A stretch of 63,996 bases of DNA, filler included, from Basidiobolus ranarum (taxonomy: Eukaryota): NCBI GenBank assembly GCA_040143965.1. It is 3 parts of 3 records of this genome, joined end to end, with 100 filler letters (N's around TTAATTAATTAA, not from the genome) between each part and the next. Parts side by side here need not be neighbours in the genome. Positions count along the whole stretch, not along the records: positions 23,047 to 45,916 come from JASJQH010007052.1; 2 more parts are not named here. One strand, 5' to 3'. The position numbers were made by a program, and so were the translations under genes. Numbering within the stretch: position 1 is the first letter of the stretch; each line of letters starts with the position of its first letter. The notes below the pieces were generated by a model. That model was not told the DNA's origin, ran no database searches, and was given only the letters and a program-made list of their open reading frames with translations. This document shows positions 12,503-61,334 of the stretch, one piece after another.

Positions 12503-13087
12503 TCATACGTGAGTCTTATAATGTCTTCTCAGATTGGATAGGACAGAGAATCTTCGCTGGCAGTTGGTAAACTCACAAATGTATGGCTTCTCACCGGTGT
12601 GAGTGTGTAGGTGTACACGTAGTGAACTTGGGCGTGGGAACCGTTTATGACAAAGATGACAAACGTGACGTTTGGCAATGTAATTTGGCTGATTACGTTG
12701 GTATTCTTCGGTCATTTCACTCAAGTGAATCTTTTTCTGTGCGTACATCCCTATTTCCTCATCGGCGTCAGGAGTGGTGGGTGCACTGCCATTGGTATGG
12801 TCGTCAGAATATGGGCTTATACCAGATTCTAGAAGCGAAGGTAGGAGAGCTTGAAAAGCGGAATTGTTGGAATTTCTATCTTGATAATCTGATTTCATTT
12901 TTTTATACGAGAAGTAGTCCTGGTTTTTCACCTCTGGACATGGCTTAAACCAAGTTTCTTTGGAGAAAAGGTCTTGAATGCTAGGGAGTTGGCTATCTGG
13001 TGGAGTCCAAAGGCCGTGAGATTTTGTAGCGGCAGTATCTTGATACTGAGATTGATACATACTATGAGTTAGGCTAAGTTGAGACAT
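12503..13087 (-). CDS. C2H2 zinc-finger transcription factor (two C-terminal fingers)
   Basis: CHLCHKRFPRPSSLRVHLHTH-TGEKPY-ICEFTNCQRRFSVLSNLRRHYKTH; intronless 194-aa ORF. Confidence 0.92.
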   Translation of the reverse strand: MSQLSLTHSMYQSQYQDTAATKSHGLWTPPDSQLPSIQDLFSKETWFKPCPEVKNQDYFSYKKMKSDYQDRNSNNSAFQALLPSLLESGISPYSDDHTNGSAPTTPDADEEIGMYAQKKIHLSEMTEEYQRNQPNYIAKRHVCHLCHKRFPRPSSLRVHLHTHTGEKPYICEFTNCQRRFSVLSNLRRHYKTHV

Positions 13088-13906
13088 ATTGAAGGAGTTG
13101 CCAATAGAACTGATCCTCGAGCTTATGGAAGGTGGATTTGGAGAGTGATCTAGAATGGGTAAAGAGGAGTAGCTAAATATTTTAGAGAGATAGGTGGCAG
13201 TTAGTAAGACAAATAGCCTCAGCGGGGTTTTATACTCTCCAAATGGATAATCTGAAACGGAACTAAGTGTAGCTCGATTGTAGATCTACTTTCTAATCGA
13301 CTACAAATATTGCCATGAGGGATAACGGAAGTCTCTGACCCTATTTTGGAAGAGATGTGAATTCAAGCTGATCAAGGATCACTGTAATATTTATTGGTGT
13401 CGACCGATTGTGATAATAAAATATATATATATGGTCATTTGGTGACAAGCTCCCCGACAGTATTCGCTTAAAGAAATGGGAAATTAAGCAACCCCTCATT
13501 TCCAACTAGCGAGGAAAGCCGATGATAGCTGGTCCAATCACCATATAGGTTCAATCAAGAATCAGGGCTATTTTTAGGATACGGTGTAATATAGCGGCCA
13601 ATTGAAGGACCAAACACAGCGTTCTTAGAAATGGTTGAATTCCGTCTTGTACACTAGAGGGTTGGACATACAGTAGCGATCTTCCTTCCATGAGACGGAA
13701 AAAGGCGAGAAAATGCGTGTAAAAGGCGTGGATTAGCATGAAAACAACATCTATGGCACAACCGGTATTTCCCATAATAGCATTATGCTGACGACCGCAC
13801 CCCACGCAAAGTACCAAATCACCTCCCTTTCCCCATGTCTAAGGCTTTATCTATGGTAGCACCAGTTTATTACGGTTGGGTTGATGCATAGTTCCTGTTT
13901 AGGTAA

Positions 13907-22946: not shown

Positions 22947-23046
22947 NNNNNNNNNNNNNNNNNNNNNNNNNNNNNNNNNNNNNNNNNNNNTTAATTAATT
23001 AANNNNNNNNNNNNNNNNNNNNNNNNNNNNNNNNNNNNNNNNNNNN
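22947..23046. other. Artificial assembly spacer (N44-TTAATTAATTAA-N44)
   Basis: Fixed 100-bp block containing a six-frame stop linker. Confidence 0.97.
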
Positions 23047-27904: not shown

Positions 27905-28651
27905 CTATGCAGCCAAGCCACCATTAACCTTGATGGTTTGACCAGTTATCCATTTCGCATCCTCTGAGCAAAGGAAGGATACAACGCCGGCAATATCCCC
28001 TGGAGTACCTAATCCGTACAAAGGTGCCATCTTCTTCATCTTTTCAATAGTAGCCTCATCTTTTCCGTTTCTAAATAGTTCAGTATCTGTAGGGCCCGGA
28101 GCTACTGCGTTGATGGATATTCCTTTGGGACCCAGTTCAGTGGCTAAATGCTTTGTTAAAGTTTCAACCGCCGATTTGGATGCAGCATAAAGGCTGTATT
28201 TAGGCATTTGCAGGGCAGTAGTTGTGCTTGACAAGTTGATGATACGACCACCTTTCGACATACCTACCTTAGTAGCTTCTTGAATAGCAAAATAGGTAGC
28301 GCGGACGTTAGTACTGAAGATTTGCTCATACGTCTCCTCCGTATGGTCTTCAAGAAGCTTATAGTGAACAATCCCAGCATTGTTCACTAAAATATCGATC
28401 TTGCCAAATTGTTTGACGGTTTCGGCAATTAAATTCCTGATGTCGGATACCTTTGAAATGTCTCCTTGAATGGCAAATGCATCTCCACCGCTAGATTTTA
28501 TTGTAGACACAATGTCCTCAGCTGCTTTGGCGCTTTTCACGTAGATTATCACCACTTTAGCTCCATCCTTAGCTAAGCGCAAGGCGATCTCTTTGCCAAT
28601 GCCTCTGGAGGCGCCAGTAACTAATGCTATTTTTCCTTGGAGTTCAGACAT
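27905..28651 (-). CDS. Classical short-chain dehydrogenase/reductase (FabG/THN-reductase-like), intronless
   Basis: TGASRGIG, DILVNNAG, IINLSS, YAASK and NAVAPGPTDTELF motifs. Confidence 0.92.
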   Translation of the reverse strand: MSELQGKIALVTGASRGIGKEIALRLAKDGAKVVIIYVKSAKAAEDIVSTIKSSGGDAFAIQGDISKVSDIRNLIAETVKQFGKIDILVNNAGIVHYKLLEDHTEETYEQIFSTNVRATYFAIQEATKVGMSKGGRIINLSSTTTALQMPKYSLYAASKSAVETLTKHLATELGPKGISINAVAPGPTDTELFRNGKDEATIEKMKKMAPLYGLGTPGDIAGVVSFLCSEDAKWITGQTIKVNGGLAA

Positions 28652-29069
28652 GTTCAGTAGATGAATTGTAAGAAGGGACTCAAGAGGCTCAATATAAATA
28701 TTCGTCAACAACTGACATCCTGACTGTCCTCAAGTGCTATCTTTGAGCGATAAGGCTACGTAACTCATCTCCATACTTGGAATTTTAATTGGCCAAACCA
28801 TTTTTTATTATAGTAAGCCCGTTTGTGAGCTAACCAGCCAATAAAAAAATGCTGAATCAGCTACTCATAAGAGACTCTTGAAACAAGTTTCTGCGGAATC
28901 CATTATAGCTAAAAGAAACCTTGCGTGAGATACCAGCACCAATGTGCATTGTGGTGCATAAATCACTTGTGTGCTCCTTTTAATCTTGCCTCAAGATTTC
29001 ACAATTGCTTAGTGAGATATAAATAACTAGGCATCTCTTCACATCACCTAGCCAATTTTTTGCTTGACA

Positions 29070-31878: not shown

Positions 31879-33226
31879 ATTGAAGTATTAACTGTCGCAA
31901 AAGCTGGAGTGGTCTTGGTTAATGTAAGGTGGTTCGCTCTATATTCATTGGGCTATTGGGGATCAATCAGATCGAGCCCGCGTATATTTTTTTGTTGTGA
32001 TCTACTGATCACATTTGTTGTTATTGATTCGCAATCAGATTCCTCAGGCCCTAACCTAGGACTGTTGTAAATGCCGACTAAAGTCCGGTCTGACTGGTGG
32101 TGTAAAATTTACAGACTTTCTCATTAAACCTCTCTTATGTTGAAGTTGTCTATATACTTGGAAGACCTGAAGAGTGAATATGTATATACTTGAGAGCACA
32201 TTTAACTATAATCACAGCTACTCAGTTTGAAGGCAAATCATACAATTCCAGAAAGCGGTACTACCTTTGGAAACGACGGTGAACATACTCCTCGCTCTTG
32301 TTAAGGGAGATTTTAGATATAGTTTATTAGCAAAGTATTGGGAAGTTTCTTGAAAGGAATAGTTAGCCGAGGAAATCTACATTCTCATCTGGACTTCATT
32401 TTAAAAGTACGGGAATGATGCTTGTGAGTATTGTATGAAGTGCACGTAGAATATACTAGACGATATGAATACGTGCGAGTAGATTGCGCAAAGTAGAGTT
32501 TGAAAATAGATTGCAAATACTGTTTGGCCATCGGGGAAATCATTACCAAGATATGGAGACTGGAGTGATAATAGAACATCCCTCACTCAACAGGCAGAAA
32601 GTGTATACTTAACTCTAACTCTATATCTGTGGAGGGAGCTTGGTAAAAGGCTTATGAATAACACCTCCATTTCGTAAATCTAAGGCAGCAAATGAGCATT
32701 TTTTTTAACACCACTAATCAAGCTATCCGAAAAGTAGTCCAGCGAATAAAGTTCTGTATAAATCATTTTATATCACGCTTGCAGAGCTACGTGACTTGAT
32801 TGATGTTCATTTATTTGATATTCAAAAATGACATCTTGATCTATTTTTCGAATCGCTTGATCTATTTTGTTCTACCATTTGCCCTTCTTGAAATTACCCT
32901 TAGACATATCAAATCATGACGCCTAACGATCCTTTCTAAAGCGGTCACTCCAAATTCATAACTAGGAAGGATAGGGATCTTGATGACAATCTGGCACACG
33001 TAAAACTTGTCACAACTCGCTCAAGGAGCTCTAAGGTTGAGATGCTAGTCGTACTCATCCAGAAGTCTCTTAAAAACGTTTCTGACTGTGGTAAAAGTTG
33101 CAAAAATATATCATGGTTAGATTTGTACTATTTGAGAGATAAGTATAAAAGGAATTGTTTCCGAGTATTTCCCACAGTATCTCTTTAATCTCTATTTCTC
33201 GTGACTATTTTCTCTTCAGCGCAAGT

Positions 33227-34198
33227 ATGATTGGAGTCAACTACGCTTCTATCTTAACATTGGCTTTCGTCTTGGTAACACAAGGGCAGGACCTAGTAAG
33301 TGTTACCAGAACCTATCCTCTCGAAACTATAACTTGGCATCTAGCTACTGAATATATCACTGCTGTGATTTCTGCTCATACTCAACTGGCTTCCATCGAG
33401 GCTGTCACATTCTCTGAAACTCTTGCTGGTACCACCGCAACTTTTGTAGATGAGCGTTACACTATTTTAAGAACTGTAGTACCTGTCACAAATGTTCGTG
33501 TAGTTCCTAGCTATACTCTAGCTGCTTCCTTGAAGTTGACCACTATTAGCAGAACATTGTTCCCTTCAATATATACCGGGACGGACCCTTTCGCAATTAC
33601 TGTTGATATTGAGACTCCTGGGATTCCCGGCTATGTCTACACCATTACCGGGCCAATTGACAATGGTGTTGCTGTCGGAACAGTAGTAGAGCAATTATCT
33701 GCACGATCGGTTATCAAAACTATACCAGGGCCAACTGTAACACATCAGATTGGATTGGGAAATGAGGCTGTTGTAACTGAAAATGGAGTAGCTACAACCC
33801 AATATGAGCGCACTTCGACATATACAGAGTCATTCAGCTCAACTCTCGTGACTCGTCATATTGCTTCATCTTCACTGGTACATGCGGTACTCATCACCAT
33901 TTCAGGCAGTCGGTCTCCGTCTCCATCTCCATCTGGCAGTGTCAGTGGTATTGAGAGTTCAAGACCACCACCTCCAACTGTGACCTTTACTCAAGACATT
34001 ACTGCTTCTACAACTATCGACACTACTGCTATTCAAACGTCGGTTATACTTACAACCCTCGGAGCTCCTCAGTTTGGTGGGACTGACCTCCAATCAAATG
34101 ATATTAGACACAAATATTCGCCTGCAACCAGATCTAACAAGTGCAATACTAAACCAACCAAGTGTCCCCAATCCAATGCTGTAGGAGAAGGAAGGTGA
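33227..34198 (+). CDS. Secreted Thr/Ser-rich protein of unknown function, paralog 1
   Basis: Signal peptide MIGVNYASILTLAFVLVTQG; long intronless ORF; extensive co-linear similarity to 35043-36053; TATAAA at about 33144. Confidence 0.82.
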   Translation: MIGVNYASILTLAFVLVTQGQDLVSVTRTYPLETITWHLATEYITAVISAHTQLASIEAVTFSETLAGTTATFVDERYTILRTVVPVTNVRVVPSYTLAASLKLTTISRTLFPSIYTGTDPFAITVDIETPGIPGYVYTITGPIDNGVAVGTVVEQLSARSVIKTIPGPTVTHQIGLGNEAVVTENGVATTQYERTSTYTESFSSTLVTRHIASSSLVHAVLITISGSRSPSPSPSGSVSGIESSRPPPPTVTFTQDITASTTIDTTAIQTSVILTTLGAPQFGGTDLQSNDIRHKYSPATRSNKCNTKPTKCPQSNAVGEGR

Positions 34199-35042
34199 AT
34201 TCTCCATGAAGTTGAATAATTCCAACAAAGGTTATGCTTAATAATACCAAATTTAGTTCTATTATTGATAAGGATCCCAATCAAATTGATTTTAATTATT
34301 GTATGAATTTTTAATAAACTTTCGGAATAATGATAATGATGCCTTTTCAGCTCATCGTCCTTTATTAGAACTATCACTGTGGTGAATACGATGTTATTAG
34401 CTACTGCAAATATAGAAGCATTCAGCTTTTAGATTCCGTACTTCCATTGCCAAGTGGGCAGGAGAAGATAATCATCTAACCCAAAAATAATTCCTTAGCT
34501 GCAATACAAAGTCGGTTGTTGATAGCCTCTTGATGATTCCTTGACATCATCGAATTGTTCACAAACCCTCTTGTGGTTCGCCAGCGCTTTGACATTGAGA
34601 AGGGGTATTCTAAAAAACGGGTGACCGTGCTCAATCTAGTCAACTCAAGTGTGCTATTTTACTCCATCTTCGAGCCATCAAGCCTTCCCTGTTCAATCAT
34701 TTGTTCATACCTAAATCAATCCCATACTTGACGAATCATCGAATCCGACTAGCGCTATTTCTAAAATAGTCACTAGAATCTGTTACCATGTAACATTGAC
34801 CAGGAAAATGAGCATACCATAAAAATAGTGTAGAGGGATAGCATCATTGGTAAAAATACTCTAAAGTTATTTATTTTAGAGTCAAATAATTAGCATTCTT
34901 CTCTATAAACATAAAAATAAGTACATCTCGCGACACGAAGGTTAACTATAAAATAAACCAAATCCTGTCTCTAGTTTCTTAGACAATCATTTCGAGTTTT
35001 CTCTCTAATTCTTGGACAACAAACACTCTTTTGAACTTAAAT

Positions 35043-36053
35043 ATGGTTAAAATTCAACATTCTCTTTTTCTATTTTTGGGCTCAGCACTACTAGCGCAAG
35101 GGCAATCTCTGTATACTGCTACTCTAACTTATCCCTCAGAGACCATCACCTGGTTTGTGCAAACTGAATGGGTTACTGATACCATTTCTGCTCACACCCA
35201 GCTAGCTACTGTAGATGCAATCACTTACTCCGAAACCGTTAGTGGTGGAACATTTACCGAAGATGATGGCCGTAATGTTATAGTGAGGACCATTCCGCCT
35301 GAGACATACACCCGATCCATTCCTAGCACTGTCTTAGCTGCCTCCTTGCAGTTGACTAGCATCAGCAGAACTTTGTTCTCTTCCCAGTTTACTAGCTCAT
35401 TTGCTTCTGAGGTTATCACCGCCGTATTAACCGAAGGGATTCCAGGTGACCTTTATACTATCACTGGCCCTACGATTGGAGGTGTTGCTATAGGAACAGT
35501 AGTAGAACAATTGTCTTCAAGATCAGTCATCAACACCATTCCTGGGCCTACTGTTACTCACCCCGTTGGACAGGGACAAGAGATTATTGTGACTGAGAAT
35601 GGATCACCTACAACTCGATTTGACTCTACCTCGACTTTCATAGAGACATTTAGTTCAACTCTTGTGACTCGGCATATTGGCACATCGTCGATCTTCCACT
35701 TGATAACCATAACACCATCAGACTCTGGTAGTGTCAGTGGTATTAGTAGCTCAACAGGTCTTCCATCACCTCCTCCAACTGTAACTTTCACTCAGAATGT
35801 TACTGCTTCCACTACTGTTGGCTCAACTGTCATTCAAACATCAGTTGTGTTGTCTACTCTGGGCTCTGGCCAGCCTACATCTCGTCCCACTCAATCAGCA
35901 GGTGGAAATACAAAATGCCCTAAACCTACTAATTCTATGTCCAAGAAATGGTCTACCACCAATTCTATGACCAAGTCTAAATGTGCAACCAAACCCAAGC
36001 CAACCAAATGCCATCCCAAGAAAAAATCTGGCAACTGGTCGAACGATTACTAA
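35043..36053 (+). CDS. Secreted Thr/Ser-rich protein of unknown function, paralog 2
   Basis: Signal peptide MVKIQHSLFLFLGSALLAQG; paralogous to 33227-34198; K/C/P-rich tail; TATAAA at about 34947. Confidence 0.85.
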   Translation: MVKIQHSLFLFLGSALLAQGQSLYTATLTYPSETITWFVQTEWVTDTISAHTQLATVDAITYSETVSGGTFTEDDGRNVIVRTIPPETYTRSIPSTVLAASLQLTSISRTLFSSQFTSSFASEVITAVLTEGIPGDLYTITGPTIGGVAIGTVVEQLSSRSVINTIPGPTVTHPVGQGQEIIVTENGSPTTRFDSTSTFIETFSSTLVTRHIGTSSIFHLITITPSDSGSVSGISSSTGLPSPPPTVTFTQNVTASTTVGSTVIQTSVVLSTLGSGQPTSRPTQSAGGNTKCPKPTNSMSKKWSTTNSMTKSKCATKPKPTKCHPKKKSGNWSNDY

Positions 36054-37959: not shown

Positions 37960-40800
37960 ATGCTCAGTACGCAGTATATAAAGCAGAGCCCTATCAACGT
38001 TTTGGGGATGGAAGATAGTCAACACATCCTCATGAATAATGGTCCAAACCTCTCATTATTCCCAGACTACGTTTCCTCTCCAATACCTTATTTATCTGGT
38101 AAACATACCTCGTATTTTCTACTTTATTGGGATCAGTTCAGTATTACATATTGAATTGTCAGTTTCTAACTAGACTTTCTTCCACAAGACATGACTAATA
38201 CACCGAAATACAATGAGGGATTTGACCAGAATAACCATGGTTCAAACATAATCCCGCCGAAGCAGGATGATTCTTCGCAATATCGTGGTGTATATTCTAG
38301 CTCTGGCATAGATATGATAACAGTTCTGGTAAGTCTTCTCAGAAATCGGTACATGTTGAAGCTCTAGCTGATTTTGGCAACTTTATTATTATTAATGACT
38401 TTAGTTAAAAGTAGCTACAAGGTGAGTTTTTCTCCAGTACTTTTCTTCATAGGAGTTTCGTTCAATAATGATTTCCTGTGTAAATAGACCGAACCCTCAA
38501 ATTAATCTTGGACCAGTCGACATGAGTGCTTCCTTTGTTGTAGGTAAGCTATATTCATGCCATATCCCCTTATTTTACTGTCTTGGCTTTTTTGATCGAT
38601 GTATTAATGGGGAAGCAACTTCTCCATGCCCCCAATCCGTTATAGCCTCCCTTCTTTTCCTGCAGAAAAATGGGGATGGTTTCACATTGACTGCGACATC
38701 ATAGATTAGGAAACATAAAGCATTCCCCTGAATCAATGCACAGATTATTAACTGAGAAATTCATCTAGTGAATGCCTTAGCTGACGATCTACCAATCGTC
38801 TACGCAAGTGAGTCATTTGAAACATTAACCGGATATTCGACTCAAGAGGTGCTGGGACGAAACAGTCGATTCTTACAGGCACCCGAAGGCCATGTAACCG
38901 TAGGATCACGTCGTAGATACACCGACAACAATGCAGTTTACAACCTCAAAACTCATATTATCCAGAAAAAAGAAATCCAAGTATCACTGGTGAATTACAA
39001 AAAATCTGGCGAGGTAAATTATCTTAACTACACAATAGGAGAACATCTGGCAGCTGTAGATCCGTTTATTCATGAATTCATTCTTGACAGGCTTTCGTGA
39101 ACCTGGTAACTGTCATTCCGATTTCAATGCACGGTGGAGAGATTACTCATTATGTTGGATTTCAAGTGGTTGGTTGCTAAACTGAAATAGGAAATCGATT
39201 CGTTAGTGACTCATTCAGGGTTTTTTAGGATTTTGTTGAAAGGCCAAAAGAAATTCGCCAAAAAGTCCAAGGTTTGCTAGGTTTAATTTTACCATTCGTA
39301 GTATCTCTACTAACTGAAGAACCTTCCACTCCCATAGAGGGTGCATATGTCCAGAATGAAGCCCTCTCGCTAATTGCACCGTTGTTGGATTCCGGTTTGT
39401 ACATATGTTGTATCATTGCTGATAGAATACCGAAACTGATGTATGTTCGCACCTAGACCTAGCACAAATCGAGCCTGAAGAACTATGTGAGGTTGCTCTG
39501 CCTTCCTTACCACTTTCTCAGATGTCAGAGGAATTCTACGGACTGATAGGTGCCACAAGCGATGTGGACAGAGATGAGTGCGCTCAGGTCTGGAATAAAA
39601 TGTTAATTGATGAGGCTGACGATTTCATTCATGTGTTATCTCTGAAAGGCGTATTTTGCTACGCATCTACATCATGCAGAAAATTGTTGGAGTATGAGCC
39701 TGAGGAACTTGTCGGTCAGTCAATATCCAAAATATGCGAGCCCAGTGATCTAAATCCTGTAATGCGTGAGATTAAAGAGACAAGTAACGATAGTGACACA
39801 GTTACACTATTATACCGGGCCAAGCGGAAGTATTCCGGGTATATGTGGATTGAAGCGACTGGTAAACTATTTTCGGAACGAGGAAAAAGCAGAAAATATA
39901 TCATTCTTTCTGGGCGTCCGCGACCTGTTTATAAACTATCACGAGGAATCATTAGTCGTAGTAGCGGTGGAGTAAATGACATGGATATGTGGACGAAGTT
40001 GTCTACTGAGGGAATGATTCTGCATATTGCCAGTCGATGCGAAAGCTTATTGGAATTTACCCCCTCCGACTTGGAACAAACAAACTTTGCCTTCCTATTT
40101 CCCCAAGAGCATATTTCAGGATTGAATGAATCACTTAAAAATGTACAAAGCGGGACTACAGTCAAACTTCATCATAAAGCAAGAACGAAGCAGGGCCAAT
40201 TCATCAATGTAACCAGTGTATTTTACCCAGGAAATACCGAGTATCAAGGGAAAGTCGCATTTGTTCTTTGTCAGACGCGTGTGATGCAATCGGAGTTAAT
40301 ACAGGATGTTGAGTTGGATGCATACGAAGCTTCCCCAATGCCGCAAACTGACGAAATCTCAACGGATATTGATAATTTATTTGACATATTAAGCGAGATT
40401 CATCCAACAAATTGGCAGTATGAAATGCACTTATTGAAATTGGCAAATAGAAAGCTGAAGGAAGATATAAAGAAATTGCAGGAGCATAATCACTCTATAA
40501 CTACGAAAAAGAAGGTATGTATTATTTATACACTGGCGGTAATATATCAGAGTTCCTAACTTTTAGTCCAGAAAAAGAGATCGGCGACAATAGATAAATG
40601 CTGCACAAGTTGCAAGCGTACTGATTCTCCTGAATGGCGGAAAGGTCCTGAAGGTCCCGGAACTCTTTGTAATTCTTGTGGTCTGAGTAAGTTGAATCCA
40701 ATTGTCGATTTAATAGAATCTGTTGCTAAATTATGTTGTGCTTGTAGAATGGTCAAAAATGATACGCAAATCATCACAGTTGAAGCCAGAACTTAATTAA
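37960..40800 (+). CDS. wc-1: White collar-1 family photoreceptor/GATA transcription factor (LOV-PAS-PAS-GATA), multi-exon; LOV Cys replaced by Ser
   Basis: [89 protein letters not shown]...[21 protein letters not shown] (PAS-B); [45 protein letters not shown] (GATA). Confidence 0.93.
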
Positions 40801-45916: not shown

Positions 45917-46016
45917 NNNNNNNNNNNNNNNNNNNNNNNNNNNNNNNNNNNNNNNNNNNNTTAATTAATTAANNNNNNNNNNNNNNNNNNNNNNNNNNNN
46001 NNNNNNNNNNNNNNNN
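45917..46016. other. Artificial assembly spacer (N44-TTAATTAATTAA-N44)
   Basis: Identical structure to 22947-23046. Confidence 0.97.
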
Positions 46017-48987: not shown

Positions 48988-51900
48988 TTACCTGATGCTC
49001 AACTGCATTTCATTCATTTCTAAATCTTCCTCTAAAGTGAGGTCGTTGTTAGACCCATCAGAACGATCTTTCTCTAGTTGGTCTAACCCACTGTTTCGAG
49101 ACTTGTATAATTCTATTTTGCTTTGGTTATTTTCGGAAAAGTTCTTTTTTCCAGATACTTTCTCCATTTCTCTAATAATATCGAGGTCTTCGTAGTACCA
49201 CATTTGTTTAGTGAACATAACGAGATAACGAGGAAGTATTGAGACCACCAGCGCAACAAGAAGTGTTAACCAGAATGTGGGCGACTTGTAGATGTATAAG
49301 CCAGATCCGTACGAGTCGGTAAAGGAGAATGAAGTGTAAATGATTGTAAAGATGAATGTGGCCAGAATACTTGCGAATACTGAGGTGAACATTATCCAAT
49401 TCCAAGTATATGCATTCAATCCGATTTCTACATTCACAATGGTGATTAAAGTAAGAGCCACGCTGGAGGAGAGATCGAAGTTTGTTGCGTCGTATCCTTC
49501 CCAGCTCACTACGTTCGTAGCAAAGGCAGCGTAAAATGCGAAATAGCAAATTACCGATTGATACAATCCCTCAAGAATATACACCCAAAACCGAGGCATA
49601 TTGTAGCGGCTCTGCTTCATGCCAATGCTATATAGTTGGGGATTATTTAAGGCATTCTCATAAGAAACAGCACGATCACATGTACCGATGATCACAACTG
49701 ATACTGTGGTAAAGATAAGATTGTAAAGTTGAATCCACATATAGTCGTAAAACATATTGGCTGAGAAACCGCAGAAGAATTGATACCAGAGTACAGCTAG
49801 GACCCAGATCACATTTTTGTAGAAGGAATCAAGAATCATCTCTGCAATTCTAAGATACGACCAAAATCCATGTACAAGAAGTAGATTTTTCAAATATTTG
49901 AACTGGGAGATGGTATAATCCGATGCCATAGCTGCTTGTAGGCCCTCTTCACCAGAAATAGCCACGCCAACATCAGCGGCTTGGATCATACTTACATCGT
50001 TGGCACCGTCACCTATGGCTAAGCATATTGCATTCATTCCCTTGCGTATCATGTGTACCACTTGAGCCTTTTGTAGTGGACTGGTACGGCAACAGATCAC
50101 TGAGTGGCAAAGAGGAGCTATCTCGAGCAACAGAGCTCTTGTGCTCACGTCTTCTAAAATGATTTTCAACGCACTGCCATCAATGACCAATGCATGCAAG
50201 ACCGATTCTCTACAGAACATGGCAGAACGGCGAGGAAGTGGCGACTGATCAAAATAAGATGCACTCGTCCTAGGATCTGTATTCATCGAGGTCGAATCAC
50301 CACGGATATTAGCAACAACACTTAGAAATTGCTCTTTAGCCAGTGCTGGGTTGTCACCACGGATCGCCCAAAGCTCCATCTCACTTGTCAGAAGATTACA
50401 AGCAAAGCCAATGTTAATGGCTGTTTCCATTTTATCTCCGGTGAGTACCCACAGCTTCATCCCGGCTTGTCTCAGAGAGAGAATACAGTCGGGCACACTC
50501 TCCTGTAGCTTATCTTCAATAGCTGTTGCTCCAATCAAGATTAGCTCTTGTTCAATCTCACTGCAACACTCTTCCATCTCTTCATCTCGATCACCCAAGG
50601 CCGTAGATGCCTGGCGATAGCGTTGTTCCCATTGCGTATGTTGTTCTTCAGACAGGACTCTATAACCAAGGCAGAGAGTTCGTAAACCTGATGAGATAAT
50701 ATGCATTAGCCAATGTAGTAATATAAATACAGTAATAAAGAATGACGAGCATACCTTCGTTTGAGTATCCATCAATGTGATCGGCTGTAGCCTGTATTAT
50801 TTCCTCTTGATCGCTAGCCAATCTCTCATAGATCACATTATCCGCACCTTTACAAAACAGAACGATATCGTTCCAGGGTTTGGGTCTTCTAACAATAACG
50901 GACATTCTCTTACGCGTACTATTAAACTCCAAAACGTGTAGCAGTTGAAAGGTGGCCTCTTCTCCAAGAATATCCAGAGTGACGGAATCTTTGTTTCTGC
51001 TCAAGAATGTAAATCCTAAATCCTTGGCAGCTGACACCAAGGCGTTTTCATCCGGCGATTCAGCTCTATACTTGAGTTGATTATCTTCAGGGGAATTTTC
51101 ATTAGTTCCCTCGGGCTTTTCAATAATCACAGTATGACACACCGCCAATAATATAAAGAATTCTCGAATTTTCTGGCTATGAGACTTGCTGAGACCCTCT
51201 TTATCGTTTAGTTCTTCTTCCCTCATATCTCGGAAGATCTCTGGGTCAGCGAATGTCATGGTGCTAGGGTCAGTATTCGCGTATTTTGGGGTATATGTAC
51301 GCTTCATTTCTTTCATAAATTCTTCATAAAGTTTTTCCGAATCAAAGCTCATTTCTGAGTCAGTAGGGTCTATTCCTTCTCTAATTTTAGCTCCCTTAGC
51401 GGCATCCGTCTCTCCTTTGAGAGATTTCCCGTAAGAATGGCCATTTATGGAGCAGCGGCTGAACTCCATGATATTTCTAGTTAGTGTACCGGTCTTGTCC
51501 GAGAATACATATTCGATTTGACCTGAGGAGCAATTGAATGAGTATGGGAGTTAATCGATTAATCGATGAATACAAGAGATACCTAAATCATCCGAAAGAT
51601 TCCATGATTTGGGGATGCACACCGAGTTTGTGGGTTCGTAATACAGCTGGATATCAGAGTGGATGAAATAGGCTTGCCATGTTTTGACGAATTCAATACT
51701 GACGTAGAGTGAAATAGGAATAATATTTTGGAAGATAATCAAACTCGCCCTGCATTCAAAAATGAATACATTTAGTCAGTTAAATTGGCCTAGTTCTTAG
51801 AACAGGAGATCATCGTCTTACCAAAATGTGACAAACCCGGTCTCGACTGGCGACTCATTCTCAGCCCCCTCAAAGGTACTAGCGGTTTTTCGTTGGCCAA

Positions 51901-53180
51901 CACCTCCGGCAAGGGCGCAAATCAAACACAGCAAAATCAAAATTCCAAAATTCATAATGATCTACAAGAGAAATGGGCTTTAGTAAAGCTCGTCACTCAC
52001 TCATCGCCAAGATACTCTTACTAACCTGTTGGTTCATAGTTTTCTCAATGCGACTTCTCTTCGACGGTGTGTCTCCTGAATTTAACATGATTTTGGTATC
52101 ACCACCGGTAAAAACAACCACGCCAATCACATAACCGGTATTTCTTAAAACGTGTCCACGTAAGAGGGTGTTGTTGATATTGATGGGAACTAAGGTGGGT
52201 GTTTTGGATACTTCGCCAGTGTGGCTAGGGGGGATAGGACTGAGAATACGCATGGTGGCTTGATAAGTGTAGAGATTCGAAGAAGGTAGATCCGACTCAA
52301 TAGAGCATTGGAAATTGACGCAATCTTGAGCAGTCTGTATGTACGAGGTTTCTTCCAGGCAAATTCTCGTTTTCAAATTCGTTTCACCGTCCAGCTCTTT
52401 GGTTTCGATGTAGCACTCGCCATCCTCCTCAGATGTGGCCAGAATGATCATATCTGCTGGGATCGATTGATTGTTCTGAACGTAAATCAAATCGCCCACT
52501 CTAACATCCTGCCATAAGATGGAATCAAATTCCGCGTTTGGAGCGTTGACTGGAGAATATTGGATGGTAGATTCGTCATCGATATCAAGATTGTCTTCTG
52601 TTTCATTGAATCCGCACCAGCCATACTTCGTAAACGGATATAAAAAGAAGTCACTGATTGCATGAATTCCACGACTCCATATGCTTACGTGTTGATTAGA
52701 GTAATTTGTATTTTCCCAGTGTTTTAAATGCTTTGTTTTCGAACTGTTAAATCTCCTATCAGAGATATGTCGTTTCCAATCTTCGAAGCCATCCTTTATG
52801 GCTGTTATACCAATGACCACCGAAAGAGGAAGTACCACGAAACCTGCACTACCCACCTCAAAATAAGGGAGTAATTGTAATATAATTAAGAATAAAAAGT
52901 ATACATTGGCAACTCGACGAAACTGTTCAAACAGATTTTTCGGTAAAAATGAAAACACTGTGTATTTTGAAGTGCGAATTCGATTACTAGGGAATTGAGC
53001 CTTTGGCAAGCCATGTCTATTGAGTGCACTAGGGGGCAAGTCGACGTTAACAAAAACTCGTCGGTTTCCGGCATTTGAATGACGCGACGGAGAACGCAGT
53101 AAAGTCTGCTCTAAACGTTTTCGTTCTGCCTTCTGTCGGTACCGTAGTAGTTGCTTTCTACCTGGTAAATGTTGGGCCAT
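48988..53180 (-). CDS. P4-type phospholipid-translocating ATPase (Dnf1/Dnf2-like flippase), 5 exons
   Basis: NRIRTSKYTVFSFLPKNLFEQFRRVAN; LDGETNLK; IIPISLYVSIE; FSDKTGTLT; AESPDE; EFNSTRKRMS; WVLTGDKMETAINIG; AIGDGANDVSMIQ; C-terminal TM helices. Confidence 0.95.
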
Positions 53181-54146
53181 GGTTATATGCGCGGTGGAAA
53201 AATATACTCAGTATGAGTTCTATTGGTATTTGGCTATATGAAACACCCAGGATTAGTATAGATCCATAGTTAAAGAGAGTCCTTGGGAGAAAGTAACCAA
53301 CCTTTAAGATCAACCTGATTTGTATTAAGTTAATTACTTGGAGTTCTTTTTGATACAGGTTGTTAACTTTGCAATGGAATATTTACAGAAAAATTGAAAC
53401 AGAATCGAGATAGAGCTTGTAATAAATAATAACTCTTGGGTCTGAAGTATCTCTACCAAGTCGGTGAAGAGAAGAAAATTCCGACTTTTGGTGTGGAAAA
53501 CACTGAACTGATAAGGTAATTTAACAACAACTCGGCAAGCATTTTATTAGGGCCGTCAAAACAAGAAAAATGGGTAAATCGATACTCACTACAGCACCTA
53601 TACTAAAAGGAACCAGTGCTATGCTGAATATAGATAAGGTGATCGGTATGGAAAATATATTAAGAGCCTTCAGACAGAAGATTTCGATGATTCGCATGAT
53701 CCCCATGACACTCGAGGTACCCCACTCCCAGTGTAAGTGTACATCTTCGATATCCAGGCGATACGGGGTTTCTATTCTAGCCCAGACATTGTATTGAGCC
53801 ATTCAGTTTCCGCAGACTAGGTTCCATGGATTTCCATTATCTCACGATGTGACTTCGGTTGGATAAGATTGGAACGCTTCGGGATGAAATCTCCCTTGGA
53901 TGATGCTTTTCAACCTCTGATCGGTCAATCAGCTACACCTGACAAGCGTGTCTTAAACCAAACATGGTATGCTAGATTTTCCAAATCCAATGAGTTTAAG
54001 CTGACTCTCATTAGAAGTTACCATAAAAAAGGATTTTAATTTGCTGATATAATTTCTACTTGTAGATTTTGATGATCCAATTTTGTGTTCTGGTAACCAC
54101 GCTCTTCATTATGCTCCTCACCACGCTCTTCACTAGGCTCTAGGAG

Positions 54147-57750: not shown

Positions 57751-58729
57751 TTAGTTGTGTGCACGATTATTCCAAGCTACACAGTCGACGAATTTTACAG
57801 TCTTCCCTCCAAAAATATCCAAGGCACTATTAAAAAGAAATAAGGTGAGATTCAGGCACCCATTTAGTTGCAAGAAGAATCATCTGTACCTTCCAAAAGT
57901 TAGATCCACTTTCCCCTTGGAGAGCTTGTTAACTAGTTCCAAATCCTCAATGGCTAGAAGTTCAATGGAGACGATTCATATCAACAGTTATTCAACATGA
58001 AAATACTTAATAAGAGCAACTTTGATTACTTACCATTGGCACCACCAGCATATGTAGTAGGGATATTCACCCATTCACCCAATTCTTATATAAAGTGACG
58101 GTTAGGAATTTCAATTAACTAGCAATATGGTTTAACTTACTTTCAACTAATTCTTGGTCCACTCCTCTGCACAAACCTTCGACATCAGCAGCATGAATCA
58201 GGAATTCCGAGCAGTACTCGGCCAACAAATCCAAAGTTTCTTTATTTACTTCCAACTCGGTGATGGTTTGCCATTTATTAATAGCAACCACCCATTTCCC
58301 AGCTCTTTTACGACAACTAACGTCGACCACCAGTTTATCTTTACCAATTTTTTCTGATATCAGTTTTAACCTATCCAAAGAGAACTTTCCCTCCGGGAAT
58401 AACCAACTGGTTACGATGACTTTAGAAGCGCCAAGAGACAACCAATATTCGGCGTTTTCCAAAGTGATTCCACCACCAACTTGTAAACCACCGTGCCATT
58501 CCGCTAAAGCTTCTTTAGCTGCGAGTTCATTATTAGGACCAAGTTTGATGACATGAGCTCCGTGAAGTTGGTTTTCTTTATAAAGGTTTGAATAATATTT
58601 CGGCTTCTCCGTAGCGACAAAGTTGGTTTTTAATTCCTCTGGATTAATATCACTCAACGTACCTCCAACTATTTGTTTAACTTCACCGTTATGTAAGTCT
58701 ATGCAAGGTCTAAACTTTGTAACTACCAT
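57751..58729 (-). CDS. HIS6: ProFAR isomerase (HisA, eukaryotic His6 type), 4 exons
   Basis: [74 protein letters not shown]. Confidence 0.95.
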
Positions 58730-59170
58730 GATTTTCACTTTAGTTAGGAGAAAAATTGGGGTACAAAAGGGAAGAAATATGGGATTTGGATTTGGAATTC
58801 CCTTCTCTTCAACTCAGTCTTACCTTCTTTAGCACGGGGTAGATGATGTGACTAATATTGACTGATTTTTAGATGGATTTAATCAAGAATCCAATGATTA
58901 CATACCATTCGGAGAATTTTAAATAACATAATTTGTATGATGATTTCGATATTTTTCATTTAATACAAGTAGTATTTCAAATGAATGACTCCAACTTTAA
59001 GGTGTTGTTGTTTGGAAATAACGAAGACACGATAAATGAAGGGGGAGGGCTTCGACATATGGATTACATAGGGAATCAAAAAGGAAGATAGGGTGAATTT
59101 ACATGAGATATATGGACAAATAATGTAGCAGTAGTATAGATCACGGAATCACACGGTCGATGAATCAAGC

Positions 59171-61035
59171 CTAGGAATGAATATGATTAGAATTGAGATT
59201 AACCAAGGGAAACTGATAGTGTCTTACCGGGACAGTAATGGTCTCTCGTTTCCGTATCTGAGAGCGAACTTTCTCTCTATGCACTCGAGATCTTCGTTGA
59301 CGAAGGTTTGTGCGACATTTAAAGTAGACAAAGACAATGAAAATTATCAATGCGATCAAGCCTCCGATCAATGAAACGGTCAGGATTTGATTTAGAAATT
59401 GATAGGTCTTCAAGAAATGAATGAGTAAAGTTTGCTTGAATCTAGAGGCTAGAGTTGAACGCTTACTTGATTGTAGAGACATGGACTATTCTTTCCTACA
59501 ACCCAACATCCCGGACGTTGTATTGCATTTAAATCGATCCAAACTTGTGATTCTCCCGAAGCATTGAGACTTCTTGCCAGATATAAGCTATCTCTAGCTG
59601 TCTTGGGGATGGAGAAATAGTAACCAGCTGGACAGCCTCCATCTGCCGCTTCATACGAATATAGCTTCTGATTTTCGATTACCCACTGCCAGAGCAATAC
59701 ATCAGTCACTGAGAATAGAAATGAAAATAAGCATCACTTACGTCGGAGAGATTGCTACGTGAGAGACATGCAATTGGTAGCTTTCTATCACAACTCCTTA
59801 CTCTCCAGTGACCACTTTGAGCGTTCATTACAACGCATCTTTGATCACCATAACGGCCATAGGGATCCGGTTGATCGGGCTCCCATGACCAAATAGCAGG
59901 TATAATGTTCACTTCGTTATATACACCTGGAGCGCTGAAGGTCAATGAATATCCACAATCAGTCTACATTACAATACAACTTAGTAAGCTGAGGAAAAAA
60001 GTCCCAACGAAATGGCTGCATTACCAATGCACTTATACTATCTTCGGTAAAATTAGTACTATCCAATGGCTGAGTGATTGTACGCCAACTCCAAAAGCTT
60101 GATTGCACTTGAGTGGCAACAAGTCCAAGGTTATTACTCTGCAGTAACGACGGTGAACTGGAATTTAAACAACGATCGCTGTTGAATCCTCCGTTGGAAT
60201 CTAACCTCTCCGGTACATACAACTCACTCGAAGCAAAGAACAAGCTATCTATCAACCTCGTGGATAATTGATACGCACTAAGGCTTGAACCCAAATCATA
60301 TCCTAGTAGAACTCTGTTGGGCGTGACATATCGATTCAAATATGAATAGGTTGGCCAAGCTGATGGAGATTCCAGATACCCAGTGTTTGGATTCTTGTCA
60401 ATAACATAATAATACTGGCCAGTTGCTATCCATTCGTGGGGGAGACTCATACGTGACTGTTCCAATTTGGTGCGTGTGTAAATACTACTACCTAGTGAAC
60501 GATTTATCATATCATACAGAATATCCAAAGGATTCACCACTCCGAGGGTGTTCAAGGAATGCAGTCGAAATAGAAGAACGATAAGAAAAGAAGGTGTCAT
60601 AGAATTCATAGTGGAGACATGATGGTCCAAAAAGGCCAAAAAGTTCGAGAATTCCGCTTCGGTAGAGCATTTTATGTCGTTTGCTGTGGTTTCGTTATTG
60701 ACGGTGGTACTCACTGGACAAAACTGCCATTGACTCCTGTCTGGATTCCAATAAAGATCTATTAATAAGCGGGTATAGCCTGCCTTGACCAAGTCAACTA
60801 TACCCTGGACTTTGGGGGTGGAATAATCCTTTCCTTGAAAATATGCAGTTGTGAGATTGATACCAATGTGATTCAAACGATCGATAGGGACTTCCCAGGA
60901 CAAGTCACGCTGGGTCAGTAGAGAATTCTTGACATAAAGTGGACCCCACTGATTAATGGTTTCCTCTTGACCGAACACTATTTCTATTTTACAGAAAGCA
61001 AGTAATCCCAAAAATAATAAGCTCGAGGCTCTCAT
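59171..61035 (-). CDS. MTC6: MTC6-family membrane protein (signal peptide, PLC-like N-domain, lectin-like C-domain, TM helix), 4 exons
   Basis: QRDLSWEVPID; GYTRLLIDLYWN...WQFCP; WSWEPDQP...RCVVM...WRVRSC...IAC; CPAGYYFSIPKT; VWIDLN...CWVVG...CLY; C-terminal TM followed by basic residues. Confidence 0.8.
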
Positions 61036-61334
61036 AACAACCGATTCACCATAGAATAAGAGAAGCTAGGATAAATATCACGAATCAAACTGGATTAATT
61101 AGGTTTATAGCCTTCGATTCATCGGCTCTACACGGTAATTATTCCGAAAAAGAAAACTCATTACGTTCAAAAATTCTCTTTCGAAATCTTTTAATCAGTC
61201 AATCATCTGCATTGAAGTGGTACCAAATCAGGAAAGACTATCAATGCGTAGAATGGTTTATTGGATAGGAATGGATGATGCTATATGAATTGAAGAATTG
61301 TAAGCCACGAAACATGTACACCGTACGATGTCGC

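What the first reader, a model, noticed from the sequence alone, without database searches (positions are those of the whole stretch)
38769..39170. White-collar-1 homolog lacking the photoactive LOV cysteine (GRNSRFLQ)
Seen: codon AGT (Ser) at 38864-38866 where the LOV consensus GxNCRFLQ has Cys. The other flavin-contact residues are retained (N-x-R-F-L-Q, the two Asn in VNY and VNL, and the signalling Gln in VGFQ). The hinge Cys of WC-1/VVD (VDMSC/VDTSC) is also changed, to VDMSA. PAS-B, PAS-C and the GATA finger are intact with an open frame. Known: this Cys forms the flavin C4a adduct; Cys-less LOV domains cannot form it but can signal through the neutral flavin semiquinone; zygomycete-grade fungi carry several wc-1 paralogs. 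Inference: a paralog repurposed as a redox/semiquinone sensor, a light-independent partner, or a dominant modulator of the White Collar complex. Caveat: TGT>AGT is a single-base change.
Basis: partly seen in the sequence, partly recalled or inferred. Interest (0 to 1): 0.75.

Follow-up and report, generated by a model that had tools for sequence, protein, structure and literature searches.

The report
Cysteine-less White Collar-1 paralogue in Basidiobolus
One of about eight copies of the fungal blue-light receptor gene White Collar-1 in Basidiobolus ranarum has lost the cysteine that normally reacts with the light-absorbing flavin, yet a sister species keeps the gene almost unchanged, so it is a natural test of how such sensors work without that residue.

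Summary
AGT (Ser) sits in frame at 38864-38866 within GRNSRFLQ, and GCT (Ala) at 38528-38530 replaces the hinge Cys.

- **Gene:** It has 11 exons (38032-40800, + strand, all introns GT-AG, 642 aa). It matches Basidiobolus ranarum K7432_004858.
- **Not an assembly error:** The B. meristosporus ortholog carries the same Ser and Ala.
- **Not decaying:** Between the two species the N-cap is 36/36 identical and the LOV core 113/118. That is at least as conserved as in four Cys-bearing paralog pairs, whose LOV cores are 89-94% identical.
- **Rarity:** Only 5 of 267 WC-1-type LOV domains examined lack the Cys, in four lineages.
- **Origin:** The pair nests inside a Basidiobolus-only paralog clade. 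Its stem branch is long (1.13) and its tips are short.
- **What is kept:** All other flavin-contact residues, the signalling Gln, PAS-B, PAS-C and the GATA finger. PAS-C is heavily remodelled.

It is a selectively maintained WC-1 paralog that cannot form the adduct. It is either blind to light or signals through flavin reduction. Raw reads, expression and dN/dS could not be checked. I found no paper describing it.

The parts
38032..38098 (+). Exon 1 (start codon ATG 38032; N-terminal, poorly conserved region)
   Evidence: The exon search reproduces the annotated product exactly; donor GTAAAC.
38189..38328 (+). Exon 2 (alternative start Met of isoform P0255; start of the LOV N-cap, [16 protein letters not shown])
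38405..38421 (+). Exon 3, a 17-nt microexon (LKVAT + 2 nt) in the N-cap helix
   Evidence: acceptor TTTAG, donor GTGAGT; needed to give the family-conserved VATRPNP.
38488..38543 (+). Exon 4: N-cap hinge [19 protein letters not shown]; hinge Ala codon GCT at 38528-38530 (VVD Cys71 position)
38769..39013 (+). Exon 5: LOV core, first part, including the FAD-loop insert [12 protein letters not shown]
   Evidence: Pfam PAS_9 E 4.2e-08; gapless alignment to VVD.
38864..38866 (+). AGT = Ser126 at the position of the flavin-adduct Cys (VVD Cys108)
   Evidence: shared with the B. meristosporus ortholog.
39091..39168 (+). Exon 6: LOV core, second part (AFVNL...VGFQV); N179 at 39100-39102; signalling Gln200 CAA at 39163-39165
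39229..39271 (+). Exon 7 ([18 protein letters not shown]-terminal flank). The following intron, 39272-39337, is retained in frame in annotated isoform P0254
39338..39394 (+). Exon 8 (linker)
39457..40514 (+). Exon 9: linker, PAS-B, PAS-C, coiled coil
   Evidence: Pfam PAS_3 E 3.3e-16, PAS_11, PAS_9; AF2 pLDDT about 90 for both PAS folds and a long helix.
40572..40686 (+). Exon 10: basic stretch and GATA-type zinc finger CTSC-X18-CNSC
   Evidence: Pfam GATA E 1.1e-11; 28/29 identical to the ortholog; motif found.
40748..40800 (+). Exon 11: basic tail of the finger ([17 protein letters not shown]) and stop codon. The intron 40687-40747 is left unspliced in annotated isoform P0003

Best explanation
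This is a genuine, inherited and selectively maintained paralog of the blue-light receptor and transcription factor White Collar-1. It arose by duplication within the Basidiobolus lineage. Its N-cap and LOV domain contain no cysteine at all, so the canonical flavin-C4a cysteinyl photoadduct cannot form (shown by sequence; the photochemistry follows from established LOV knowledge). The flavin pocket, the FAD-loop insert, the N5-sensing Gln, two further PAS domains, a coiled coil and a GATA zinc finger are all kept. It therefore most likely still binds FAD, pairs with a WC-2-type partner and binds GATA-type light-response elements (inferred). My preferred reading is that it is blind to light in the canonical sense: a permanently dark-state WC-1 subunit. 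It would supply constitutive or basal White Collar Complex activity, or compete with the seven photoactive paralogs for partners and promoter sites. Its remodelled PAS-C domain would give it its own partner specificity. I put the real-and-selected part at about 0.9 and the light-blind subunit mechanism at about 0.45. The flavin-reduction sensor rival is close behind.
For: Real and inherited:
- Ser126 and Ala89 are shared by B. ranarum and B. meristosporus, which come from independent projects.
- The gene has 11 exons with GT-AG introns and an open frame.
- The public record carries three isoforms that differ only by intron retention or start site. I take this as indirect evidence of transcripts.

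Under selection:
- N-cap 36/36 and LOV core 113/118 are identical between the species, against 106-111 of 118-119 in four Cys-bearing pairs. The N-terminus is only 25/56 identical.
- The two tips sum to 0.31, against 0.21-0.43 for the other ortholog pairs.

Lineage-specific duplicate with a burst of change:
- The pair forms a clade (100*) inside a Basidiobolus-only clade (99*). Its stem is 1.13, against 0.36 and 0.47 for the sister paralog stems.

Photoswitch parts lost:
- The adduct Cys is Cys in 262 of 267 family LOVs.
- The hinge Cys is also gone.
- There is no other Cys in the 154-residue N-cap plus LOV, against 2-3 in every other paralog.
- In VVD, C71S abolishes the conformational response (passages of PMC6396943).

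Other functions kept:
- Pfam finds PAS and GATA domains.
- VVD matches at E 2e-39 without gaps.
- The model superposes on VVD at TM 0.94-0.97 and about 1 A.

Partner domain remodelled:
- 14 of 36 paralog-conserved PAS-C sites changed in both species, against 5 of 44 in PAS-B and 9 of 66 in the LOV core.

Precedent (recalled, not read here): Neurospora WC-1 lacking its LOV domain keeps its dark clock function, and Mucor wc-1 paralogs have divided their functions.
Against: - The LOV and N-cap are the best conserved parts of the protein, at least as conserved as in the photoactive paralogs. That is more than a merely structural domain would seem to need.
- Every residue that Cys-less VVD needs to signal through the neutral semiquinone is present: Gln182 = Q200 and Tyr40 = Y58, with aliphatic residues at Met135 and Met165.
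- Another Cys-less homolog, P0138, has also lost that Gln, as expected for true loss of sensing. This protein has not.
- Hinge Ala also occurs in Cys-bearing WC-1s (6 of 225), so it does not prove an uncoupled switch.
- Expression, flavin binding, WC-2 binding and DNA binding were not tested.
- No codon-level selection test was possible.
Confidence: 0.45

Rival explanations
1. Flavin-reduction (semiquinone/redox) sensor. The Cys-less LOV still signals, because blue light or a reducing, low-oxygen environment reduces the FAD to the N5-protonated neutral semiquinone. Gln200 reads this, and the signal passes to the fully conserved N-cap. The paralog would then be a low-sensitivity, slowly resetting light sensor, or a redox/oxygen sensor.
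For: - All nine LOV-defining residues other than the Cys are kept.
- Q200 (VVD Gln182) and Y58 (VVD Tyr40) are kept. These are the residues that Yee et al. 2015 found necessary for semiquinone-driven dimerisation of Cys-less VVD. Leu and Val sit at the two Met positions that were changed to Ile in that variant.
- Relative quantum efficiency of photoreduction in that variant was 0.11, and recovery took about 3 h (PMC4682037 passages).
- A Cys-to-Ser LOV1 shows light-induced electron transfer and a semiquinone (PMC11089501, abstract as shown in the search listing).
- The N-cap is 36/36 and the LOV core 113/118 identical between the species.
Against: - The hinge Cys is replaced by Ala, and C71S blocks the response in VVD.
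- There is no Trp in the domain.
- Leu and Val at the Met positions are the family majority (144 and 107 of 251), so they are not a special adaptation.
- Physiological semiquinone signalling has not been shown for any natural eukaryotic LOV, to my knowledge (recalled).
- Nothing here measures photochemistry.
Confidence: 0.35
2. Functionless or decaying duplicate: one of many wc-1 copies that lost its sensor and is drifting.
For: Eight paralogs give redundancy. The stem branch is long. PAS-C has diverged. Expression was not verified.
Against: The open frame spans 11 exons with canonical splice sites. The LOV core is 96%, PAS-B 90% and the Zn finger 97% identical between species, while the N-terminus is only 45%. 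Tip branches are no longer than those of other paralogs. Both species retain the gene.
Confidence: 0.07
3. Sequencing or assembly error: a true TGT read as AGT.
For: It is a single-base difference, and reads could not be inspected.
Against: A different species from a different project has the same Ser. That species also shares four other family-atypical substitutions in the same domain: F45I, C71A, D77N and L185F in VVD numbering.
Confidence: 0.01
4. Constitutively lit-state mimic: the hinge Ala, like VVD C71V, and the other changes lock the N-cap in the light-state conformation, giving an always-on WC-1.
For: In VVD, C71V enhances the conformational change. The AF2 model's N-cap fits the light-state VVD chain 3rh8_B (1.1 A over 145 columns) better than the dark-state chain 2pd7_A (4.6 A over 149).
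Against: The control model of the Cys-bearing paralog P0006 behaves the same way: 3rh8_B 1.6 A over 146 columns, 2pd7_A 4.5 A over 149. The fit is therefore a property of the method or the family, not of this protein. Ala is not Val.
Confidence: 0.07

Closest known systems
White Collar-1 of Neurospora crassa and the zygomycete paralog sets (Phycomyces MadA/WcoA/WcoB, Mucor Mcwc-1a/b/c)
   Same: Same architecture: N-cap plus FAD-type LOV with loop insert, PAS-B, PAS-C, coiled coil, Cx2Cx18Cx2C GATA finger. Placed inside the WC-1 tree. Multi-copy family with presumed division of labour.
   Different: Ser instead of the adduct Cys and Ala instead of the hinge Cys. No Cys anywhere in the N-cap plus LOV. 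PAS-C changed at 14 of 36 paralog-conserved sites. All the named zygomycete paralogs among my hits carry Cys.
Engineered Cys-less Vivid (VVD C108A:M135I:M165I, 'VVD-III', Yee et al. 2015, PMC4682037)
   Same: 46% identical LOV plus N-cap, aligned without gaps. No adduct Cys, aliphatic residues at both Met positions, Gln182 and Tyr40 equivalents kept.
   Different: Natural rather than engineered. Ser rather than Ala. Hinge Cys71 also replaced. Part of a 642-aa transcription factor rather than a stand-alone LOV. Photoreduction not tested.
Natural Cys-less LOV-like domains (LOV*), e.g. the halobacterial bacterio-opsin activator BAT (Yee et al. 2015)
   Same: Meets their sequence criterion: the Cys is missing and the other conserved LOV residues are present.
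   Different: Eukaryotic, FAD-loop type, fused to PAS-PAS-GATA. None of the domain architectures in their Supplementary Data 1 contains a GATA finger. BAT has Pro at the site.
Chlamydomonas phototropin LOV1 C57S
   Same: The same Cys-to-Ser replacement at the adduct site. It forms a flavin semiquinone or radical pair in light (PMC11089501, abstract as shown in the search listing).
   Different: A laboratory mutant of an FMN-type plant or algal LOV. Its electron donor is a nearby Trp, which this domain lacks.
Other natural Cys-less WC-1 homologs found here: P0138 (unnamed assembly, Ala), P0163 (unnamed assembly, Gly), P0210 (Protomyces lactucae-debilis, His)
   Same: WC-1 architecture with the adduct Cys replaced.
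   Different: Separate lineages. The AU test rejects P0138 plus the Basidiobolus pair as one clade (p 0.022). All three have long branches (1.07-3.33). P0138 has also lost the signalling Gln and the Zn finger. P0163 and P0210 keep the hinge Cys. None has a known ortholog pair that would show conservation.

Membership tests
White Collar-1 (WC-1) family of fungal LOV-PAS-PAS-GATA transcription factors | VVD/WC-1-type LOV domain with N-terminal cap and the loop insert that accommodates FAD | tested here: met
   Gapless alignment of residues 55-202 to VVD 37-184, E 2.2e-39. Model against VVD: TM 0.94-0.97, rmsd about 1 A. Pfam PAS_9.
White Collar-1 (WC-1) family of fungal LOV-PAS-PAS-GATA transcription factors | Two further PAS domains (PAS-B, PAS-C) after the LOV | tested here: met
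   Pfam PAS_3 E 3.3e-16 for PAS-B. PAS-C gives only a weak Pfam match (PAS_2, E 0.0018), but it folds as a PAS domain with pLDDT about 90 and aligns with the family throughout.
White Collar-1 (WC-1) family of fungal LOV-PAS-PAS-GATA transcription factors | C-terminal GATA-type zinc finger Cx2Cx18Cx2C | tested here: met
   PF00320 E 1.1e-11. CTSC-X18-CNSC. Basic tail restored once the last intron is spliced.
White Collar-1 (WC-1) family of fungal LOV-PAS-PAS-GATA transcription factors | Phylogenetic placement among WC-1 proteins | tested here: met
   Nested in a Basidiobolus paralog clade (99*) within the Zoopagomycota WC-1s.
White Collar-1 (WC-1) family of fungal LOV-PAS-PAS-GATA transcription factors | Heterodimer with WC-2 and binding to light-response elements | not testable with these tools
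   No WC-2 sequence of this fungus was in hand and no binding assay is available.
LOV photoreceptors in the strict sense | Adduct-forming Cys in GxNCRFLQ | tested here: not met
   Ser126 (AGT 38864-38866). No other Cys in the domain.
LOV photoreceptors in the strict sense | Flavin-contact residues (VVD N107, R109, Q112, N151, N161, Q182) | tested here: met
   N125, R127, Q130, N169, N179 and Q200 are all present. Flavin binding itself was not measured.
LOV photoreceptors in the strict sense | Blue-light photocycle with the 390-nm adduct species | not testable with these tools
   Needs spectroscopy. Expected to be absent, from knowledge of Cys-to-Ser and Cys-to-Ala LOV mutants.
Natural Cys-less LOV-like domains (LOV*, criterion of Yee et al. 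2015) | Lacks the adduct Cys but keeps at least 9 of the other 10 conserved residues (nine are named in the passage read: YtvA G59, N61, R63, F64, L65, Q66, N94, N104, Q123) | tested here: met
   Criterion read. G123, N125, R127, F128, L129, Q130, N169, N179 and Q200 are present.
Natural Cys-less LOV-like domains (LOV*, criterion of Yee et al. 2015) | Responds to chemical reduction or photoreduction of the flavin | not testable with these tools
   Needs purified protein.

The most novel reading that the evidence does not exclude
The paralog is a working sensor that uses flavin reduction instead of the cysteinyl adduct. It would be a natural eukaryotic transcription factor in which a Cys-free, thiol-oxidation-proof LOV domain reports light and/or the redox and oxygen state of the cell through the neutral flavin semiquinone. 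In a fungus that alternates between the dark, anoxic gut of amphibians and reptiles and illuminated dung or soil, it could tell the two habitats apart. The independent loss of the same Cys in at least three other WC-1 lineages would then mark a recurrent evolutionary route from photoreceptor to redox sensor, the reverse of the origin proposed for LOV domains.
Probability: 0.3. Interest if true: 0.85.

Novelty: new variant of a known kind. Interest (0 to 1): 0.6.

Why it matters
The adduct-forming cysteine is treated as the hallmark of LOV photoreceptors. In my sample it is Cys in 262 of 267 WC-1-type domains. Engineered Cys-less LOV proteins can still signal through the flavin semiquinone, but whether nature uses this in eukaryotes is an open question.

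This gene offers a clean natural case. It is a full-length White Collar-1 with only the two cysteines and a few other family-conserved sites changed. Two species keep it under strong constraint, and seven ordinary paralogs in the same genome serve as built-in controls. The domain is small and closely related to Vivid, so spectra and oligomer-state assays are straightforward.

Whichever way the test falls, it would show how a multi-copy photoreceptor family divides its labour. The finding also shows that loss of the Cys has happened at least four times in the WC-1 family. None of the nine literature searches I ran turned up a paper describing this.

Tried and rejected
1. Whole genome of the window: none is held. 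I took paralogs from protein databases instead.
The base call and expression therefore remain unverified by reads.
3. Metagenome scan for DNA of close relatives, to compute dN/dS: one locus at only 44% identity. Not usable.
4. Search for short or fragmentary relatives of the Cys-less LOV: 11 hits, best 67% identity, all with Cys. The orthogroup has only two known members.
5. Hinge Cys loss as a second hallmark: rejected as diagnostic, since 22 of 231 aligned family members lack it.
6. Leu/Val at VVD Met135/Met165 as a special adaptation for semiquinone formation: rejected, because they are the family majority.
7. P0138 as a distant ortholog (it shares Ile45 and Ala71): the AU test rejects the joint clade, p 0.022. 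Caveats: P0138 has a long branch, and I named the group after seeing the tree.
8. Light-state-like N-cap in the AF2 model: the control paralog gives the same result. Uninformative.
9. P0137 'Gly' at the Cys site: an artefact of an unspliced insert in that gene model.
10. Neighbouring genes: short-chain dehydrogenase, C2H2 finger, P4-ATPase, His-biosynthesis, MTC6 and fasciclin proteins. No WC-2 and no photobiology gene.
11. Earlier notes of this scan: nothing on this genome or sequence. The word search returned only unrelated giant-virus LOV fusions, which I did not use.
12. Literature: sought a Cys-less WC-1. sought Basidiobolus photobiology and genome papers. One search found nothing. None describes this gene. 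bioRxiv supplements and subscription journals were not searchable.
Full report
**Observation**

The stretch 38769-39170 is almost exactly exons 5 and 6 of a gene on the + strand. In the frame of the open stretch 38756-39100, the codons GGA CGA AAC AGT CGA TTC TTA CAG read GRNSRFLQ, with AGT at 38864-38866. Upstream, exon 4 reads [19 protein letters not shown], with GCT (Ala) at 38528-38530 where Vivid has its hinge Cys.

**Gene and organism**

The large exon 39450-40513 is 100% identical to a 661-aa Basidiobolus ranarum protein, K7432_004858 (P0003). It is 80% identical to a 640-aa protein of B. meristosporus CBS 931.73 that UniRef calls White collar 1 (P0004).

The public record holds three isoforms of the B. 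ranarum gene:
- P0003 leaves the last intron unspliced.
- P0254 retains intron 7 in frame.
- P0255 starts at a downstream Met and splices everything.

A search over GT...AG introns reproduces the fully spliced product exactly. It uses 11 exons: 38032-38098, 38189-38328, 38405-38421 (a 17-nt microexon), 38488-38543, 38769-39013, 39091-39168, 39229-39271, 39338-39394, 39457-40514, 40572-40686 and 40748-40800. The product is 642 aa.

Domain evidence:
- Pfam finds PAS_9 on the LOV exon (E 4.2e-08), PAS_3 and related models on PAS-B (E 3.3e-16), and a GATA finger (E 1.1e-11).
- An AlphaFold2 model built on a 56-row alignment has pLDDT about 90 over the LOV, PAS-B, PAS-C and the finger, plus a long helix between them.
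- Residues 55-202 align without a gap to Vivid (VVD) residues 37-184, at E 2.2e-39. The VVD number equals the residue number minus 18.
- The model superposes on VVD chains at TM 0.94-0.97 and about 1 A.
- Ser126 therefore sits at VVD Cys108 and Ala89 at Cys71.
- N125, R127, Q130, N169, N179 and Q200 match the flavin-contact residues N107, R109, Q112, N151, N161 and Q182.

**Is the Ser real?**

Raw reads could not be examined.

The sister species settles the matter. P0004, from a different sequencing project, has the same GRNSRFLQ and VDMSASFVV. Among sites at which at least 80% of 250 other WC-1-type LOV domains agree, the pair departs at only five, and both species share all five: F45I, C71A, D77N, C108S and L185F in VVD numbering. 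An assembly error is effectively excluded.

**How unusual is it?**

- Of 91 full-length relatives from the word-indexed search, 89 have Cys. The only two without it are this pair.
- I added the 150 best representatives from an exhaustive HMMER search. Of the 235 proteins together, 233 have an alignable LOV. The adduct site reads C 227, S 2, G 2, A 1, H 1.
- One 'G' (P0137) is an artefact of an unspliced insert in the gene model.
- A further 23 proteins and 11 short proteins all have Cys.
- In total, 5 of 267 lack it: the Basidiobolus pair (Ser), P0138 (Ala), P0163 (Gly) and P0210 (His). P0138 and P0163 come from unnamed assemblies. P0210 is from Protomyces lactucae-debilis.

The hinge Cys is less strict: C 209, S 10, A 9, T 2, H 1 and 2 unaligned of 233. 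Six Cys-bearing proteins have Ala there, including one from Entomophthora. On its own, VDMSA therefore says little.

The 154-residue N-cap plus LOV of both Basidiobolus proteins contains no Cys at all. Every other Basidiobolus paralog, and the three other Cys-less homologs, has 2-3. No relocated cysteine could rescue adduct formation.

**Selection**

I could not obtain ortholog DNA, so I used protein-level comparisons with the other paralogs as internal controls.

| Region | Cys-less pair (B. ranarum vs B. meristosporus) | Four Cys-bearing ortholog pairs |
|---|---|---|
| N-cap | 36/36 | 81-94% |
| LOV core | 113/118 (96%) | 89-94% |
| PAS-B | 93/103 | 83-95% |
| PAS-C | 73/98 | 78-85% |
| Zn finger | 28/29 | not comparable: intact in only one pair (29/29) |
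| N-terminus | 25/56 | 33-65% |

The sensor domain is the best conserved part of the protein, and it is no less constrained than in the photoactive copies.

In a 43-row maximum-likelihood tree, the pair forms a clade (support 100). That clade sits within a Basidiobolus-only clade of eight (support 99). Its stem is 1.13 substitutions per site, against 0.36 and 0.47 for the two sister paralog groups. Its two tips sum to 0.31, within the 0.21-0.43 range of the other ortholog pairs. This is the pattern of a lineage-specific duplicate that changed quickly and then froze.

The changes can be placed by domain. The table counts sites that are at least 90% conserved in the 13 other Basidiobolus paralogs and that differ in both Cys-less proteins.

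| Domain | Changed in both / conserved sites |
|---|---|
| N-cap | 4 / 19 |
| LOV core | 9 / 66 |
| PAS-B | 5 / 44 |
| PAS-C | 14 / 36 |

The domain that changed most is PAS-C, not the LOV. From recalled Neurospora work, PAS-C is the domain WC-1 needs to bind WC-2.

**Other lineages**

P0163 groups with ascomycete WC-1s, and its sister P0160 has Cys. P0210 and P0138 sit on long branches elsewhere in the tree. Holding P0138 together with the Basidiobolus pair costs 35 log-likelihood units and is rejected (AU p 0.022). The caveats are its long branch and that I named the group after seeing the tree. The adduct Cys has therefore been lost at least four times in this family. P0138 has also lost the signalling Gln (GFC instead of GFQ) and the zinc finger. 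That is what a fully blind copy would be expected to look like, and the Basidiobolus pair has lost neither.

**Mechanism**

Shown by the sequence:
- The canonical cysteinyl adduct cannot form.
- The rest of the flavin pocket, the FAD loop, the Gln, the N-cap, two PAS domains, the coiled coil and the GATA finger are kept under constraint.

Inferred:
- The protein still binds FAD, pairs with a WC-2-type protein and binds DNA.

Two readings then compete.

(a) A light-blind, permanently dark-state WC-1 subunit. It would provide constitutive activity or compete with the seven photoactive paralogs. In its favour:
- Two elements of the switch are lost. C71S abolishes the VVD response (passages of PMC6396943).
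- PAS-C is remodelled.
- There is a recalled precedent: the dark function of Neurospora WC-1 does not need LOV photochemistry.

(b) A sensor that works through flavin reduction. Passages of Yee et al. 2015 (PMC4682037) show the following:
- VVD C108A:M135I:M165I photoreduces to the neutral semiquinone at 0.11 of the wild-type quantum efficiency.
- It recovers over about 3 h.
- It forms the normal light-state dimer, provided Gln182 and Tyr40 are present.

This natural protein has Ser, Leu and Val at those three positions and keeps both Gln200 and Tyr58. However, Leu and Val are the family majority. A Cys-to-Ser LOV1 forms a semiquinone in light (PMC11089501, abstract as shown in the search listing). 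The very high conservation of the LOV and N-cap fits (b) somewhat better than (a).

I put (a) at about 0.45 and (b) at about 0.35. A lit-state mimic gets about 0.07, decay about 0.07 and sequencing error about 0.01.

The lit-state idea arose because the model's N-cap fits the light-state VVD chain (3rh8_B) better than the dark-state chain. A control model of the Cys-bearing paralog P0006 behaves the same way, so that observation carries no weight.

**Comparison with what is known**

By architecture and phylogeny this is a member of the WC-1 family. It fails the defining Cys test of LOV photoreceptors in the strict sense. It meets the sequence criterion of Yee et al. for natural Cys-less 'LOV*' domains. 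Their catalogue of about 70 such proteins lists no architecture with a GATA finger (Supplementary Data 1, read in full).

I found no paper that mentions a Cys-less WC-1 or discusses wc-1 genes of Basidiobolus in any detail:
- Searches.
- Passages read: PMC10386755, the Entomophthora preprint and PMC3778014.

Subscription journals and preprint supplements were outside reach.

**Verdict**

The gene is real, inherited and constrained. It is a new natural variant of a well-known receptor. Its function is undetermined, but it can be tested directly.

Limits: no reads, no expression data beyond the three annotated isoforms, no codon-level test and no biochemistry. The public protein sits on a contig of 22,870 bases, while the window is 63,996 bases long. 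The window may therefore come from another assembly of the species. I did not resolve this.

Noticed in passing
window 40687-40747 and 39272-39337: Public isoform P0003 (KAK9719353.1) reads through the last intron. This replaces the basic tail of the GATA finger ([11 protein letters not shown]...) with 35 unrelated residues. Isoform P0254 retains intron 7 in frame, adding 22 residues. The fully spliced 642-aa product matches the B. meristosporus protein best.
   Followed up: yes
window 38405-38421: A 17-nt microexon encodes LKVAT(R) of the conserved N-cap helix. It is easy for gene finders to miss.
   Followed up: partly
proteins P0138, P0163, P0210 (not in the window): Three further natural WC-1 homologs lack the adduct Cys. 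P0138 has Ala, plus hinge Ala, GFC instead of GFQ, and no Zn finger. P0163 has Gly in an ascomycete-type WC-1. P0210 has His in Protomyces lactucae-debilis. Cys loss is recurrent in the family.
   Followed up: partly
proteins P0007, P0175, P0182 (not in the window): Three Cys-bearing WC-1 homologs, one of them a B. meristosporus paralog (GFLVD), have Leu in place of the signalling Gln (VVD Gln182). Its B. ranarum ortholog P0005 keeps Gln.
   Followed up: no
proteins: WC-1 is strongly expanded in Basidiobolus: 8 loci in B. ranarum and 7 in B. meristosporus among the hits. About half of the gene models lack a recognisable GATA finger. That may be real, or it may come from truncated models.
   Followed up: partly
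window 22947-22990, 23003-23046, 45917-45960, 45973-46016: Four runs of 44 N, in two pairs 12 bases apart. These are masked or withheld stretches, and both pairs lie outside the gene.
   Followed up: no
window 48988-53207 (- strand): A phospholipid-translocating P4-ATPase (flippase) gene spans three large open stretches (Pfam PhoLip_ATPase_N, Cation_ATPase, PhoLip_ATPase_C). Other neighbours: a short-chain dehydrogenase (27905-28729, -), a C2H2 finger protein (12503-13285, -), a His-biosynthesis-type protein (58115-58813, -), an MTC6-like protein (59959-61065, -) and a fasciclin-domain protein (62223-63287, -).
   Followed up: partly
window 33149-34198 and 34983-36053 (+ strand): Two long open stretches (349 and 356 aa) just upstream of the wc-1 paralog have no Pfam match at E 1e-5.
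   Followed up: no
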